Origin: Octopus sinensis
Taxonomy: Eukaryota
Direction: 5' to 3'
Length of the DNA stretch: 64,000 nucleotides
Assembly (NCBI RefSeq): GCF_006345805.1
Contig: NC_042997.1
Span: 69,998,001 to 70,062,000, forward strand
The notes beneath the pieces were generated by a model. It was given only the letters and a program-made list of their open reading frames with translations. It was not told the origin of the DNA and did not search any database. A program made the position numbers and the translations under genes. Below, in pieces: positions 9,281-59,640 of this stretch (the stretch's first letter is position 1; each line of letters starts with the position of its first letter).

Positions 9281-9951
9281 CCTAAAAGTCACTTATCCAA
9301 AACTATCACCGATTTAATATTCATATTTTAACACGTATGACCAAATCGATCTAGAAGCAAAGAATTGATGCTGCTCTTAAATTAGATTATACAGTAGAAA
9401 CCTTAACTCTATGGAAATTTGATTACACATCTAAAAATCATTCAATGTAAATTCATAGTAGAATTAAGCATAATCTGTAATAATATACTTTGTCCATTTA
9501 TTCATAGGACTAGTAAAGTTGCACATCACCCTCTGCGGCATAATTGTTTCTTAGTAATATAATGATCTAGAAATATCCACGATTAATCAAATTGTTTGTT
9601 TACTTAGTTTGATATGGTGGATTTCTATCTTTCTATCACTAAGCCACCTCTTCTAAAAAATGCGTTTTTCATTAATACGATCTTATGCTTTCTTCCCTTG
9701 TGTTGTATGAGGTACGTTGCAAACTATACTGTTATGGATTGATAGAACCATTGTATATACAGTTAAAATTATATGATACTTCCAGGCAATCTTTCTTTGT
9801 TTCATACTTTTAATTAACCTCTTCCTTTCTGTTTTAAGCACAGCAAAAACGGCACACATTGTTATATGTGTGTGCGTTTATCTAAAGGATATCCGTCAGT
9901 CAAGGACGAACATTTGTTTGCAACTAATCACGATTCAGCCAGCTTGCCGCC

Positions 9952-13933
<3,982 letters not shown>

Positions 13934-31398: not shown

Positions 31399-31656
31399 AT
31401 TGGTATTTTTATATAAGCTTCAAGCTTATGGCAATCTCTGTGCAATGTCTAAGGAAAATAGTCTAATAACGGAGCATATAAGCCCCCGACAGAAAAAAGA
31501 AGCCTGAAGGCTTATATGCTCCGCTATTAGACTATTTTCCTTAGACATTGCACGGTGATCGCCATAAGTTTTAAGCTTATATTAAAAATACCATTACTAT
31601 TATTTACAAGATTGTAAAATTCGGCACGGTATAACAAAACCATTCGCACCGAAAGG

Positions 31657-38851: not shown

Positions 38852-39024
38852 TTTTATGAATCTATATATTGCAGTACAAATATATATATATATATAGATA
38901 TATATATATATATATATATATATAATAAATATATGCATGTACATAATACATATATGTACGTACCTACATCTACATGTATATTACATGCATATATATATAA
39001 TATATATATATATATAATAATAAA

Positions 39025-39420
39025 TATTAGGGAATAATCCAAATTTACAGGGAAAAAATCAGATTTAGGATTAAATCCAATTTAATAGTAAAATATTATA
39101 AATATTATTAGAGACAAAACCACTATTTGCAAAACAAACAAGGAAAGACTTAATCAATACATAAAATTTTAATAAATAGTCAAAAAAACCGCCACTACAA
39201 TCGTTTCTTGTCTTGATCGACAATCTTCAGGTGGACTTCCAATTTACAAGTCAGTTTCATAATTTTGAAACTGACTTGTAAATTGGAAGTCCACCTGAAG
39301 ATTGTCGATCAAGACAAGAAACGATTGTAGTGGCGGTTTTTTTGACTATTTATTAAAATTTTATGTATTGATTAAGTCTTTCCTTGTTTGTTTTGCAAAA
39401 TAGTGGTTTTGTCTCTAATA

Positions 39421-39426
<6 letters not shown>
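39025..39426. mobile_element. Fold-back hammerhead element (family H1) in (TA)n
   Basis: Near-perfect inverted arms ~39101-39259 / 39266-39426, 6-nt loop, ~75-bp tail on the left; second copy at 58953-59350. Confidence 0.9.
39291..39333 (+). ncRNA. Minimal type I hammerhead ribozyme (mirror copy on minus strand 39192-39234)
   Basis: CCAC-CTGAAGA-TTGTC(gatcaa)GACAA-GAAA-C(gatt)G-TA-GTGG; predicted cleavage after 39329. Confidence 0.88.
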
Positions 39427-39456
<30 letters not shown>

Positions 39457-39460
<4 letters not shown>

Positions 39461-39894
39461 TTGAACTGCAGTTTTTACCTCTGTAGAAATGTAATGCTCT
39501 ATGACTCACGTGGGTGGACAGGGAGAATAATAGATCTCATTCGTATTTTTGGATTCGCTAGTACTGGGTGTCTGGCATGGTTTGTCCGATGTTACAGATA
39601 TCGGACGGGTATGTTTGATTCTTAGTATTTTCAAATCTAAATCAGAAGAAATCTCTGAGCTGATGAAGGAAAAGTGGCGTTTTAGCCACAAATCCAGAAA
39701 CAGACTGTCCTCGGGTATCGTATATGGATGTGATCTTTCATTGTTTTTCCCTTATACCTATGTGAGTTATTTTTGTGAGTATGCATTGTCTGGAGACTTT
39801 TATTTGCAGTTGAAGAAATAGCCAAATTTTTGGCTGCTATTTCTGAAAAGTTCGGTGTGTGGTAAAGTGAATTCTTTTACTTTACCATATTTTT

Positions 39895-39898
<4 letters not shown>
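39457..39898 (+). mobile_element. Non-coding hammerhead element in (TA)n
   Basis: ~440 bp between TA runs, containing the motif at 39656-39713. Confidence 0.75.
39656..39713 (+). ncRNA. Type I hammerhead ribozyme motif
   Basis: TGAG-CTGATGA-A-GGA.GTGGC(gtttta)GCCAC.TCC-A-GAAA-CAGACTG-TC-CTCG; GUC cleavage predicted after 39709. Confidence 0.82.
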
Positions 39899-39927
<29 letters not shown>

Positions 39928-46511: not shown

Positions 46512-46638
<127 letters not shown>

Positions 46639-47162
46639 AAAGAGGTGACCCTTAACAGGACATCTTACATGATAGAAGGAACAGTCAAAATCTAAATCAC
46701 GGTTAATTTCGAAGGGAATGAAAAATAAAAATATTTTCAATAGTTACCACTTGTACCTAGGTTTCGGACATTAATTAACAAATAAAATAATATGTTTGTC
46801 TGTGTCCTTCATCAGCAAGGGCCGCTAGATAACATATACTTATGGGACAAGTTGAGAGTACATTTACCATCTTTATACACTTTAAGTTTTCAAATTCACC
46901 ATGCAAGCGCAGTTATCGTCGGCAGCAAACAGAACCCTTTTGTGCCGACTGCCTTCAAAATTACTAAAAATCATATTAAGAAAATATAGAGTAGAAGAGA
47001 CATTTTCTACCAGTGGCCTAGCATGCATGAAATAGTCAAGTAGACAACATATCTTTCAAATAAAAGTAGTGTACATTTATACACAAAAGAAGTGATCCTC
47101 AGCAGGACACCTTACATGCTAGAATGTATATATAATATTTGTATGCATATACACAATTGTAT

Positions 47163-47523
47163 AGGCGCAAGAGTGGCTGTGCAGTAAGAAGTCTGTTTCC
47201 CACAACATAGTTCCAGGTTCAGTCTCACTGCGTGGCACCTTGGGCAAGTGTCTTCTACTATAGCCTTGAGCCGACCAAAGCCTTGTGAGTGGATTTGGTT
47301 GATGGAAACTGAAAAAGTCCGTCGTATAGATCTGTTTGTGTGTCTGTGTTCCCCCTCCACAATCGCTTGATAACCGATGCTGGTGTGTTTACGCCCACAT
47401 AGCTTAGCGGTTCAGTAAAAGAGAGCCATAGAATAAATACTAGGTTTATAAAGAATAAGTCCTGGGGTCAATTCCAGCATGGTCGCAGTCAAAATGACTG
47501 AAACAAGTAAAAGAATGAAAGAA
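47163..47523 (+). mobile_element. tRNA-SINE family A
   Basis: GGCGCAAGAGTGGCTGTGCAGTAAG head, GGTTCAGTCTC B-box-like, tail GAAACAAGTAAAAGAATGAAAGAA. Confidence 0.9.
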
Positions 47524-47885
47524 TATCGAATACACAGATACATAGATACATAGATACATACATACATACATATATATATATATATATGTGTAAGGTGTCC
47601 TGCTGAGGATCACTTCTTTTGTGTATAAATGTACACTAATTTTATTTGAAAGATATGTTGTCTACTTGACTATTTCATGCATGCTAGGCCACTGGTAGAA
47701 AATGTCTCTTTTACTCTATATTTTCTTAATATGATTTTTAGTAATTTTGAAGGCAGTCGGCACAAAAGGGTTCTATTTGCTGCCGACGATAACTGCGCTT
47801 GCATGGTGAATTTGAAAACTTAAAGTGTATAAAGATGGTAAATGTACTCTCAACTTGTCCCATAAGTATATGTTATCTAGCGGCC

Positions 47886-47955
47886 CTTGCTGATGAAGGA
47901 CACAGACAAACATATTATTTTATTTGTTAATTAATGTCCGAAACCTAGGTACAAG
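47886..47955 (+). ncRNA. Minimal type I hammerhead ribozyme with long stem II (mirror on minus 46750-46819)
   Basis: CTTG-CTGATGA-A-GGACA...TGTCC-GAAA-CCTAGG-TA-CAAG; predicted cleavage after 47951. Confidence 0.88.
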
Positions 47956-48066
47956 TGGTAACTATTGAAAATATTTTTATTTTTCATTCCCTTCGAAATT
48001 AACCGTGATTTAGATTTTGACTGTTCCTTCTATCATGTAAGATGTCCTGTTAAGGGTCACCTCTTT

Positions 48067-48172
<106 letters not shown>

Positions 48173-51470: not shown

Positions 51471-51829
51471 GAGGAACATACATGTATAGTTGTCTCCAAT
51501 CATATTTTTCCATGATTATATTGAAGATTCTTTTTCTGCTAAGTAAATATATTTTGTTCTCCTTCTCTATCTTACCTGTTTATTCCATATAAACTTACCC
51601 TGATAGAAAAAACAAGAATCCGACACACACAATCGGAATATTAACCCAAAATATTATCAAATTGACTCTCATAGCCATATGTACATTACATTAATTATTA
51701 CCACAATGTCAGCATCAGCTAAACCTCTACTTACTTGCTAATGCGGCTAGAATTAGCAGTAAAAATTTCTCTCGTATCACACCCTACTGTTTTCTGCATT
51801 TGATAGCTTAATGGACTTCTTGCATCTCT

Positions 51830-53200
51830 ATGACGGTTATGCTAAAAGCTACGGCTTTAAGTCCAACACAAAACTTACGTCTAGTTTTTCAAAAACTAGC
51901 GTTGAATGTTTGGACACAAAGTTAAGTTTTCTGGAGGCAGAATAGTGACAGAGTTTTTTTGCAAGCCCACGTTATCCCACATTTATCTCCACCGCCGTTC
52001 CGATCATCCACATCTTATTATTCGGTCAAATCCGAAATCCCAATTTTTGAGGATAAAACGGATTTGTACTGACATAGAGGATTACTGGAAATATGCAAAT
52101 GCTTTTGTACATCATTGTGTCAAACGCGGTTACAGTGAATGACGATTAAAGGATATAGCAAATGAAATAGCTGAGATTAGCAAAGATAGTCAAACCTTCA
52201 CGCATAATCTTAGCAAACACAATACAATAGATGACAGAATTCCTTTAGTGATTAACTGGCATCGAAATTTCACCAGCATTTCAAAAGTGTTGCATGAAAG
52301 TTACCAGCATGTAGCGAAAAAGTATCTTCGTTTCAAACAGATATTTCCTCAACCGCCTATTGTAGCCTTTAGACAGAATAAGAATATAATAGGATTATTG
52401 ACCTCTATTTCTGACTCCAAGAAAACGAACATAGGAGTATCTGTACACTGTACCTTGAAAAACAGCCGCAAGAGAGGTAAGCCCTGTTCATTGTGCAACA
52501 ACATGAGTCTAGTGAATTCCATCAGGAATCATAACAGTAATGTTATGATTTATACACAAGGTGAGACATGTAGAGATTCCCATTTGGTGTACGTAGTAGA
52601 ACGTACAAAACACAATCTGATTTATGTTGGTTGTACAACAGAACAATTAAACAAAAGATTTAATGGGCACAGCTTCGACATCAGGAACAATAACCGTAGT
52701 TCGACAGAACTTGCTGAACATTTCGTTTGAAACGGCTGCAATTTTGAAAAAGACTTGAAAGTGCATATTCTCAGAAAATATTCTGAATCTGCTTCACTTT
52801 CACTTCTCAGAATGCATGAGGAGAAATATGTTTTCGAATTATTAACTTCACGCCCTGGTGGAATGAATAAAATGACTTGAGAATATCATCAAATTTATGC
52901 AAAACTGTTTGATTAAATATGCTTCTTTTGCCTTTTCTTTTTTCTTTCCTTTTTTTTTTTTGTCTTTTTTCTGCCTTTATCTTTTCGCCTATTATAAAAT
53001 CGAAACTTAATGACCGATGATGCCATTCCATCATGTGGACGCTGGTTGCTTTCGTTCATACTTTAAATTTAAATTTCTATAATTTAGAATATTTATCACC
53101 TCTTATTTTGAACTTGACAAAGACAGACTTACTGTCGAAATATCGTTCAACCAATAAAATATCTCTTACAATCAAATCACGCTCTTCGTCTTGACTGATT
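51830..53200 (+). mobile_element. Penelope-like element 3' half (RT thumb, Cys linker, GIY-YIG, 3' hammerhead), pseudogenised
   Basis: KPTLSHIYLHRRSDHP..PKSQFLRIKRICT..RGY; PPIVAFR; KPCSLC; LVYVV..IYVGCTTEQLNKRFNGH..LAEHF; stops at 52140 and 52728. Confidence 0.92.
53108..53150 (+). ncRNA. Variant minimal hammerhead in PLE 3' region
   Basis: TTGAAC-TTGACAA-A-GACAG(actta)CTGTC-GAAA-TA-TC-GTTCAA: perfect 6-bp stem I and 5-bp stem II, core deviates from CTGANGA. Confidence 0.7.
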
Positions 53201-56834: not shown

Positions 56835-57538
56835 CCTATCTACCTATCTATCTATCTATCTATTGCTCTCTCTCTCTCTATCTCTCGCGCTCTCTATGTA
56901 TTTATGTGTGTGTGTGAATATATGTCAACACACACTCATATATGAACCATGCTCCCGTCTTATAAAAATCCACTCAATAAACGAAAAATCCCAGTTATCT
57001 TAGTAACTGTTATATCTAGTGGAGTGCATCCCACTCCTTCATTAGGAATCCATTTGCAATGATACAACTAAGCATAGGAAAATCGTTTAAATTCTGGAAA
57101 ATTCCCCTACGCTGTTAATCGTTACTTAATCAAGCATTACACTTTACTTCACGACTGTCACACAGGATGTCAATTTAATAATCAACATCAGATTTACGGC
57201 TCTCCCTCAGACACAACAATTCTTATTACAGCTATGCTTGCGACTTCTCTTGAACTTGAGCAAAGCAAATTATAAGTAAATAAATATATATATAAAAAAT
57301 GAATTTTAAAAAGCAAATGAATCAATTGGACATCCCATCCACTTTTCTCATGATAGCACAGCCATCCACTACTATAATAATGAATGGACTGATGGTTCAT
57401 TCATTGTCATCTTAATAGTTTCTCAAATGTCCATAAAATAAACGCACTCACACACACATTCACGCACACAAAAGTATGTTCATCTATCTAACTAGCTACC
57501 AATCTGTCTATCTGTCTGTATTTCTCCTTCATCTCTCT

Positions 57539-57577
<39 letters not shown>

Positions 57578-57578
<1 letters not shown>

Positions 57579-58145
57579 GGTTAAGTAATTGAGATTCTAG
57601 TGAATTCTAAAGAATTCACATGAATATGGTCCTTAACTAGGATGCACCGGAAATCTATATGGTGTTAACCATACGACAAGTGGGGTGATTACAAATAGGA
57701 AAAAAGTAACAAGAATGGATTAAAATCTCGGTACGATCGTTTCGTACGAGGACATCTTTAATAAGCTACAAAAAATGCAGTGAATACAGATGGCTCGTAC
57801 TCGTCAGCCGAAAAAACATCAGAGAATTCCCAAACATCAAAAGGGGTAGATACAAAAGAGGTTGTAAGATTAGCTGCATTGAAGAAAGTTCGATTCATGG
57901 AGATCCGATGAAAGGTTTTAAACCTATAGAATTTATGCATGTCTCCATGAATCGAACTTTCTTCAATGCAGCTAATCTTACAACCTCTTTTGTATCTACC
58001 CCTTTTGATGTTTGGGAATTCTCTGATGTTTTTTCGGCTGACGAGTACGAGCCATCTGTATTCACTGCATTTTTTGTAGCTTATTAAAGATGTCCTCGTA
58101 CGAAACGATCGTACCGAGATTTTAATCCATTCTTGTTGCTTTTTT

Positions 58146-58150
<5 letters not shown>
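57578..58150. mobile_element. Fold-back hammerhead element (family H2) in (TA)n
   Basis: Arms ~57695-57903 / 57943-58150 (one mismatch seen), ~39-nt loop, ~115-bp tail on the left, TA runs on both sides. Confidence 0.9.
58033..58118 (+). ncRNA. Minimal type I hammerhead ribozyme with extended stem II (mirror on minus 57727-57812)
   Basis: TTCGG-CTGACGA-GTACGAG...CTCGTAC-GAAA-CGATCG-TA-CCGAG; predicted cleavage after 58113. Confidence 0.9.
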
Positions 58151-58180
<30 letters not shown>

Positions 58181-58417
58181 TAAGCAATAAGGGTTTAGCA
58201 ACGAGTTGCCTTACCACATACCGAATTTAGAAATAGCAGTCAAAGGGTTATAGCTATTTCTTCTACTATTTCTTCTACTATATATATATAACTCTGAGTA
58301 ATAGCTTTTGCAATATTTCTGCTGCTTTTAAATAAAGCATATTACTCTACCTCTGGTATATATATATATATATATATATAAGGAGAGAGATGAGGGAGAA
58401 ATATATATAAATATATA

Positions 58418-58856
58418 CTCTTTTACTCTTTTACTATTTTACTTGTTTCAATCATTTGGATGTGTCCATGCTGGAGCACTGCCTTTAGTCGATCGAGCAA
58501 ATCGATCCCAGGACTTATTCTTTGTAAGCCTAATACTTATTGTATCGGTCTCTTTTGCCGAACCGCTAAGTTACGGGGACGTAAACACACAACATCGGTT
58601 GTCAAGCGATGTTATGGGTGGGGGGCGGGAGGCAAACACAGACACACAAACATATACACACATACATACATATATATATACATCTACATATATACGAAGG
58701 GCTTCTTTCAGTTTCCGTCTACCAAATCCATTCACATGGCTTGGGCACCCCGAGGCTATAGTAGAAGAAACTTGCCCAAGGTGCCACGCAGTGGGACTGA
58801 ACACGGAACCATGTAGTTGGTAAGCAAGCTACTTACCTCACAGCCACTCCTGCGCC
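58418..58856 (-). mobile_element. tRNA-SINE family A, full length
   Basis: Minus head GGCGCAGGAGTGGCTGTGAGGTAAGTAGC; tail AGTAAAAGAGTAAAAGAG. Confidence 0.9.
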
Positions 58857-58892
58857 TATATATATAATACATATATACATATATATATATAT

Positions 58893-58944
<52 letters not shown>

Positions 58945-58952
58945 ATAATAAA

Positions 58953-59640
<688 letters not shown>

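What the first reader, a model, noticed from the sequence alone, without database searches (positions are those of the whole stretch)
57578..58150. Family H2 hairpin: hammerhead with a long stem II insertion and palindromic CGATCG loop
Seen: same architecture as H1 (tail, ~209-bp arms, TA flanks) but unrelated sequence. CTGACGA (58038) and GAAA (58102) are 57 nt apart, closed by a 7-bp GTACGAG/CTCGTAC helix extended by CATCT/AGATG. The long insertion could evade standard covariance models. The shared architecture in a distinct family points to a common mechanism.
Basis: partly seen in the sequence, partly recalled or inferred. Interest (0 to 1): 0.7.

Follow-up and report, generated by a model that had tools for sequence, protein, structure and literature searches.

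The report
Penelope-type inverted repeat with dimer hammerhead
Two back-to-back copies of a short repeat sit in a TA run, each with a hammerhead self-cutting RNA motif that has an unusually long side arm and is predicted to cut only in pairs; this is likely an ordinary footprint of a Penelope-like jumping gene.

Summary
Window 57578-58150 is a 117-nt tail plus two 209-bp inverted arms (1 mismatch) between (TA)n runs. Each arm carries a complete type I hammerhead: core intact, stem I 6 bp, stem II 7 bp with a 43-nt structured loop, stem III 2 bp, GUA site at 58113. No strict match arose in 150 window shuffles.

Public contigs show a large repeat family. A linked double change turns loop 3 GATC into AATT and keeps the 8-nt palindrome; 5 of 6 common variants fall on free positions. 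Two copies co-fold as a textbook double hammerhead. The monomer is predicted to misfold, and a read-through transcript to bury both ribozymes in one hairpin.

Tail, inverted partner, TA target and dimer-type hammerhead are all published Penelope-like element (PLE) features. The long loop has precedent (34 and 29 nt in published PLEs; 32 nt in another family in this window). Rfam scores H2 below threshold but misses short-loop H1 entirely. No partner ORF was found and stem II showed no covariation.

Verdict: new member of a known kind, likely a short non-autonomous PLE-dependent unit. Interest 0.27.

The parts
57542..57577 (.). left (TA)n run, the likely target site
   Evidence: sequence
57578..57694 (-). 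117-nt tail: 3' extension present on the long copy only
   Evidence: summed contig depth tail/arm 0.24 (X1) and 0.55 (X3); an X5 contig has (TA)n before 57583
57695..57903 (-). arm 1, hammerhead-sense on the minus strand; part of the long copy 57578-~57944
57726..57813 (-). type I hammerhead, copy 1 (core starts 57807; predicted cut between 57732 and 57731)
57904..57941 (-). 38-nt spacer, read as the extra 5' part of the long copy; its junction with arm 2 has 2-3 nt of likely microhomology at 57942-57944
   Evidence: covered in all four runs; loose ends behind 57932 run like the window up to 57943-57944; junction printed
57942..58150 (+). arm 2, short copy without tail, hammerhead-sense on plus; its last letters TAT overlap the TA run
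58032..58119 (+). type I hammerhead, copy 2: stem I 58032-37/58114-19, core 58038-44 and 58102-05, predicted cut after 58113
   Evidence: RF00163 21.4 bits, E 0.004, GA 34
58045..58101 (+). long stem II arm: 7 bp, bulge, 5 bp, then a 30-nt loop holding a 5-bp hairpin (58065-69/58075-79)
58105..58112 (+). 8-nt palindrome (stem III + loop 3), predicted dimer helix
   Evidence: duplex -10.0 kcal/mol and co-fold; linked GATC>AATT change
58148..58179 (.). right (TA)n run

Best explanation
H2 is a tail-plus-inverted-pair insertion in a (TA)n run that was likely made in one recent event by the enzyme of a Penelope-like element copying a short (about 370-nt), probably non-coding passenger RNA, whose hammerhead is predicted to cut as a dimer. 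SHOWN: two divergent copies, the 3' end of each against TA; one runs 117 nt further 3' and 38 nt further 5'; intact hammerhead core; a multi-copy family; a palindrome-keeping variant. INFERRED: (1) a PLE RT-endonuclease supplied in trans nicks both strands of (TA)n; (2) each 3'-OH primes cDNA on the same RNA sequence, one at the tail end (57578) and one 117 nt inside (57695), like the two start sites of the anole PLE; (3) the long cDNA reaches the unit's 5' end near 57944, the short one stops at 57942, and the two are joined through 2-3 nt of microhomology; (4) in tandem or paired source RNAs two hammerheads swap strands, form an 8-bp stem III and cut after GUA; (5) at this locus a read-through transcript would meet the antisense arm first in either direction and fold into a 209-bp hairpin, so these two copies are likely silent as ribozymes. 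The long stem II arm is likely a tolerated, self-folding appendage. The core shared with rival 1 (PLE-type insertion, dimer-type hammerhead) is about 0.85 likely; the number given is for the non-autonomous version.
For: Anatomy matches the published PLE pattern: inverted 5'-truncated copy, tail at one end, (TA)n bias (PMC8557442); paired hammerheads 100-700 bp apart on opposite strands (PMC4209133); tail between two RT start sites, both strands extended (PMC11167929). One template: the arms differ at 1 of 209 and share a minority allele at 57873/57972 (the other letter holds 92% and 89% of depth in X1 and X3). Dimer: co-fold MFE is the double hammerhead, -60.4 against 2 x -27.2 kcal/mol. 57735 and 57738 change together (X1 depth 60434/58409; X3 16289.8/16289.8; X5 12.8/12.8; absent in X16) and keep the palindrome. 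Constraint: 5 of 6 variants >=3% in X1 or X3 lie on the 28 free of 88 positions (P = 0.012). Fixed 5' end: loose ends in X1 (2 contigs) and X3 (2 contigs) follow the window to 57943-57944 and then read TA-like, at the point where this copy stops. Neighbours behave alike: the two H1 insertions fold back within about 6 nt of each other, and both H3 arms start at one point and carry a 36-nt terminal repeat. The arm's open frame has no credible homologue.
Against: No PLE ORF was linked to H2, so the enzyme is inferred from anatomy alone; no own genome is held. The fixed 5' end rests on 4 contigs of a related subfamily. Four X16 contigs and one X5 contig run past 57941 by 24-107 letters with no second piece listed, which fits a longer element equally well and gives no sign of tandem units. 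The double change is one inherited event, both changes are CpG transitions, and linked variants make P = 0.012 optimistic. One common variant (58118, 6-8%) breaks a stem I wobble pair, and a rarer one (58034) breaks a U-A pair. In the whole long-copy transcript stem I has P of only 0.14-0.18. The tail (117 nt) is longer than the published 30-40 bp. Cleavage was not tested.
Confidence: 0.5

Rival explanations
1. Same enzyme and same dimer-type hammerhead, but the template was a full-length autonomous PLE; both copies are its pLTR end, cut short at 5'.
For: 5' truncation with an inverted partner is the usual PLE product. Contigs overrun 57941. The sense frame of the long copy is open for 59 codons, and its first residues give the best score in the element against a 4-sequence block of PLE endonuclease C-ends, on the expected strand and side. 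Depth falls about twofold from the hammerhead toward the 5' end.
Against: That score is not significant: 82 of 1000 shuffles and 11 of 165 other window slices reach it. BLASTP against two PLE proteins found nothing. A 1-nt deletion at 57825 inside the frame holds 15% of X3 depth. Related copies turn TA-like at the same point where this copy ends.
Confidence: 0.35
2. The palindrome arose at the DNA level (fold-back repair or a MITE-like element) from a repeat that already held a hammerhead.
For: Near-perfect arms with a short spacer; microhomology at the centre.
Against: The ends are asymmetric (tail on one side). Four such pairs from three unrelated hammerhead families in 64 kb are all divergent and TA-flanked. 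No transposase-type termini were seen.
Confidence: 0.07
3. The long stem II arm is a tertiary scaffold that makes this hammerhead active as a monomer, for example by pairing with the sequence 3' of stem I.
For: The arm is stably folded and its helices show no common variant. By inspection ATTAAA in loop 2 could pair with TTTAAT after stem I; pseudoknots between stems I and II are published (PMC3088659 passages).
Against: That pairing is A-U only, competes with the extension helix and shows no covariation. The monomer's core is predicted to mispair. The palindrome is kept, as a dimer needs. H1, H3 and H4 have loops of 6, 32 and 22 nt in the same setting.
Confidence: 0.06
4. The inverted pair is an assembly or library fold-back artefact.
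For: Near-identical arms; no contig joint across the centre was listed, though arm 2 was not in the stretch laid.
Against: The flanks beyond the TA runs are not mirrored base for base. The arms differ at one site where arm 1 alone departs from nearly all contigs. The same layout recurs in other families.
Confidence: 0.02

Closest known systems
PLE pseudo-LTR ends with type I hammerheads (Cervera & de la Pena 2014, PMC4209133; Craig et al. 2021, PMC8557442)
   Same: Type I hammerhead with large stem II (7 bp), G10.1-C11.1 pair, 2-bp stem III with palindromic loop; copies a few hundred bp apart on opposite strands; inverted partner, one-sided tail, (TA)n target (Hydra clade, Naiads).
   Different: Loop 2 is 43 nt, against 3-10 nt in the Hydra rows of File S2; tail 117 nt against 30-40 bp; no extra nucleotide after A9; no ORF linked.
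PLE-X1_sMoe and PLE-X1_sTam hammerheads (Craig 2021, File S2)
   Same: PLE-borne type I hammerheads with loop 2 of 34 and 29 nt, marked as deviating from the canonical structure.
   Different: Spike-moss, endonuclease-less, rDNA-targeted elements; unrelated sequence; loops somewhat shorter.
Non-LTR retrozymes of animals (PMC7229834; bioRxiv 10.64898/2026.07.22.740005)
   Same: Non-coding unit of retrozyme size (about 370 nt; mussel units are 350-390 bp), type I hammerhead, low GC, thought to be moved by PLEs; monomer copies are common.
   Different: Here an inverted pair with a tail, not a tandem; no circle or tandem shown; no terminal repeat inside H2.
Poseidon element of Anolis carolinensis, PAc (Frangieh et al. 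2024, PMC11167929)
   Same: Two RT start sites bounding a tail; both strands of AT-rich DNA extended; hammerhead upstream of the start sites.
   Different: PAc's ORF starts in stem II and its tail is 30-40 bp; H2's only ATG in that area opens 11 codons.

Membership tests
Type I hammerhead ribozyme | Core CUGANGA, GAAA, UH around three helices, stem I open | tested here: met
   all core letters match RF00163
Type I hammerhead ribozyme | Reaches Rfam RF00163 gathering score | tested here: not met
   21.4 bits against 34; short-loop H1 gets no hit, so this lowers the Rfam label only
Type I hammerhead ribozyme | Self-cleavage | not testable with these tools
   needs an in vitro assay
Dimer-type (PLE/newt) hammerhead | 1-2 bp stem III with palindromic loop able to pair between two copies | tested here: met
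   8-nt palindrome; co-fold; linked GATC>AATT change
Dimer-type (PLE/newt) hammerhead | Covariation in stems I and II | tested here: inconclusive
   no stem II variant >=3% in X1 or X3; one A-U>G-U change in X5; two stem I changes break pairs
Penelope-like element insertion | Inverted copy joined at the 5' end | tested here: met
Penelope-like element insertion | Optional tail at one end | tested here: met
   117 nt; tail/arm depth 0.24 and 0.55; longer than published
Penelope-like element insertion | Microsatellite target | tested here: met
   (TA)n on both sides; a second copy ends on (TA)n in X5
Autonomous Penelope-like element | Linked ORF with PLE RT and GIY-YIG endonuclease | tested here: inconclusive
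   absent at this locus; the arm peptide has no credible homologue; other copies could not be read
PLE clade (Neptune, Hydra, Poseidon, Nematis, Naiad) | RT phylogeny and endonuclease motifs | not testable with these tools
   no protein; three short H2 DNA words and one peptide word not found in the Craig 2021 supplement
Non-LTR retrozyme | Tandem units of 170-400 nt, each with a type I hammerhead | tested here: not met
   inverted here; no 'go back' joint; no head-tail repeat. Applies to this locus and four runs
Non-LTR retrozyme | Abundant circular RNA | not testable with these tools
   only contigs were available

The most novel reading that the evidence does not exclude
H2 marks a class of PLE passenger elements with fixed ends and long, structured stem II hammerheads (43, 32 and 22-nt loops in this one window) that short-spacer searches skip. 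Their normal insertion product would be a self-silencing 200-bp hairpin, and such motifs would account for some PLEs reported to lack a hammerhead or to have only a 'half core' 35-50 nt apart.
Probability: 0.15. Interest if true: 0.55.

Novelty: new member of a known kind. Interest (0 to 1): 0.27.

Why it matters
As it stands this is one more PLE-type family, with a natural palindrome-keeping change that supports dimer cleavage. It is also a clean substrate for two open questions: what the PLE hammerhead does (the anole PLE does not need it in vitro, PMC11167929) and how the inverted-plus-tail product forms. Two arms from one template with start points 117 nt apart make a two-primer model testable. 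The practical lesson is that searches limited to a 7-17-nt spacer between core halves (Craig 2021 methods) or to Rfam thresholds undercount hammerheads in such genomes. If transcribed, the hairpins would be double-stranded RNA open to editing or small-RNA processing; nothing here shows that.

Tried and rejected
Own genome: not held.

Whole-window Rfam scan: 166 matches, 150 listed, no hammerhead among those listed; the miRNA hits on H2 only reflect the long hairpin.

Pattern scans of metagenome contigs (70 loci) and viral contigs (2 loci): 0 of 72 similar to H2 by BLASTN at E<0.01, and none with stem I above 4 bp; treated as chance. Genome contigs were not scanned.

Arm peptide P0001: 0 hits at E<=10 among 4 candidates; 1 hit at E 7.9e-4 in 1.84 billion, a tandem-repeat sequence with no PLE domain, rejected; no Pfam match; no Atlas hit; endonuclease C-end resemblance not significant.

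The PLE remnant at about 51800-52920 shares no DNA similarity with H2, so it is not its partner.

Expression: no RNA holder listed; X5's RNA label is a guess. A>G differences were not read as editing.

Hammerhead-fold energies had a mis-indexed loop hairpin; the corrected values are -22.8 (hammerhead fold) against -27.2 (MFE).

Earlier notes: nothing by sequence, place or seven words.

Paper searches found no description of this family. Lunse et al. 2017 on dimeric PLE hammerheads is not held and may list long-loop variants. Repbase and Dfam were not available, so the family may already be catalogued.

Full report
Setting. The window is AT-rich (29-40% GC per 2 kb) and full of microsatellites and repeats, with an intact non-LTR RT ORF at 9777-13589 and a decayed GIY-YIG gene at 52143-52730. 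It is animal-like. From recall it resembles a cephalopod genome, but I did not test the species. No whole genome is held.

Observation. The element is (TA)n, a 117-nt tail (57578-57694), arm 1 (57695-57903), a 38-nt spacer, arm 2 (57942-58150), then (TA)n. The arms differ at 1 of 209 positions. Each holds a type I hammerhead pointing outward: stem I 6 bp, CUGACGA, stem II 7 bp, 43-nt loop 2, GAAA, stem III 2 bp with loop GAUC, GUA. Loop 2 folds into a 5-bp extension and a 5-bp hairpin. In 150 shuffled windows the relaxed descriptor matched 3 times in all and the strict one never, against 8 real matches.

The family elsewhere. Of 24 runs listed, 20 hold at least half of the sampled words, under four organism labels and eight studies. 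I laid 4 of the 24 on 57578-57941, that is tail, arm 1 and spacer, not arm 2: 645, 439, 7 and 18 contigs. All were contigs. Summed depth is not a copy number; as a rough inference, mean arm depth in X3 is about 2,400 times that of one contig that runs on into unrelated sequence, which suggests a family of the order of a thousand copies.

What the variants say. Positions 57735 and 57738 change together (36-39% of depth in X1, 17-19% in X3, one contig in X5, none in X16). On the sense strand loop 3 goes from GATC to AATT, and the 8-nt palindrome survives. A single hammerhead has no reason to keep these two loop bases complementary; a dimer does. It is one inherited event and both changes are CpG transitions, so it is supportive, not proof. 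Of 6 variants at 3% or more in X1 or X3 inside the 88-nt motif, 5 lie on the 28 free positions, among them N7 (P = 0.012; linked changes inflate this). The sixth breaks a stem I wobble pair. Three further changes inside the motif reached 3% only in X5 and were left out of that count: one in a bulge, one A-U to G-U in stem II, one breaking a stem I pair.

Folding. In the monomer stems I and II form, but stem III has probability 0.001 and the core mispairs; the hammerhead fold lies 4.4 kcal/mol above the MFE. Two copies co-fold into the double hammerhead, with intramolecular stem II, an 8-bp intermolecular stem III and swapped stems I, at -60.4 against -54.4 kcal/mol. A transcript through the whole element in either direction is one long hairpin (-418 and -405 kcal/mol), with the antisense arm made first. 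In the isolated long copy stem II persists (0.63-0.94) but stem I is weak (0.14-0.18). These are predictions.

How it was likely made. Both arms carry a minority allele at 57873/57972, so they were likely copied from the same template sequence; 57707 is private to arm 1 and likely arose after insertion. Both 3' ends abut TA, one 117 nt further along than the other. Tail depth is 0.24 and 0.55 of arm depth, and a divergent X5 contig ends on (TA)n within 5 nt of this tail end. This fits nicking of both target strands, priming at two start sites and joining of the cDNA ends. Frangieh et al. showed extension of both strands and two internal start sites bounding the tail for an anole PLE (PMC11167929; passages and section 3 part 2). 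The joining step is my inference.

Autonomous or passenger. Loose ends behind 57932 (2 contigs each in X1 and X3) follow the window to 57943-57944 and then read TA-like, where this copy stops. That suggests a fixed 5' end and a unit of about 367 nt. The two H1 insertions fold back within about 6 nt of each other, and both H3 arms start at one point. Against this, four X16 contigs and one X5 contig run past 57941 with no second piece listed, and the long copy's sense frame is open for 59 codons with a faint likeness to a PLE endonuclease C-end. That likeness is not significant (82 of 1000 shuffles, 11 of 165 slices), and protein searches found no credible relative. I put passenger at 0.5 and truncated autonomous element at 0.35.

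Comparison with print. Craig et al. describe the inverted 5'-truncated copy, the 30-40-bp tail and the (TA)n bias (PMC8557442; passages, section 11, supplement part 2 of 59 and three supplement searches). Cervera and de la Pena describe palindromic helix III, dimer action and opposite-strand pairs 100-700 bp apart (PMC4209133; parts 1-2 of 4). The palindrome rule also appears in PMC3088659 (passages) and PMC6765202 (passages). Retrozymes: PMC7229834 (passages) and bioRxiv 10.64898/2026.07.22.740005 (part 1 of 5 and passages; its supplements were not seen). Long loops 2 of 34 and 29 nt stand in Craig's File S2, and H3 here has 32 nt. Lunse et al. 2017 was not available.

Detection. RF00163 finds H2 only in a 161-base local scan, at 21.4 bits against 34, and finds nothing for H1. 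A 57-nt spacer is outside the 7-17 nt of Craig's core descriptor. So H2 would be missed by those searches, but the long loop is not the only cause.

Verdict. A real and young PLE-type insertion with a dimer-type hammerhead. It works like known PLE ends and retrozymes. Membership in a named PLE clade could not be tested, and the retrozyme tandem criterion is not met at this locus. New member of a known kind, interest 0.27.

Noticed in passing
window 46620-48070: Family H3: an inverted pair of ~490-nt arms with a type I hammerhead (46815-, 47890+; extra nucleotide after A9, 32-nt loop 2, palindrome ACCTAGGT). Each arm has a 36-nt terminal direct repeat (31 of 36 identical), i.e. slightly more than one ~450-nt unit, as a tandem or circular template would give; about 440 nt of another repeat and TA lie between the arms.
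   Followed up: partly
window 39457-39901: Family H4: a single 445-nt unit between TA runs with a hammerhead-like motif at 39660+ (22-nt loop 2 holding a hairpin, extra A on both sides of stem II). Read by eye; the descriptor missed it.
   Followed up: partly
window 58180-58267: A 75%-identical relative of H4's 3' end sits inverted next to H2's right TA run; 57540-59450 is a cluster of insertions in TA, with H1b at 58940-59350.
   Followed up: partly
window 39015-39430 and 58940-59350: H1a and H1b: loop 3 is GATT, an imperfect palindrome (duplex -5.8 kcal/mol against -10.0 for H2); centres 27-33 nt upstream of the core; no Rfam hammerhead hit for H1a.
   Followed up: partly
window 51800-53200: Decayed C-terminal-endonuclease PLE (RT end, Cys linker, GIY-YIG; stops and a frameshift) followed by a degenerate minimal hammerhead at ~53110-53155; relatives P0003 and P0004 at 34-36% identity.
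   Followed up: partly
window 31401-31593: Another hairpin (83% identical arms) with TA on its left and no hammerhead found by the scan.
   Followed up: no
window 9777-13589: Uninterrupted 1270-codon non-LTR retrotransposon frame with RT and zf-RVT domains and an AAT repeat near its start.
   Followed up: no
window 57509-57541 and 58380-58413: A short purine-rich stretch is inverted on either side of H2 and its neighbour (pair I22); possibly an older outer inverted repeat, possibly low-complexity chance.
   Followed up: no
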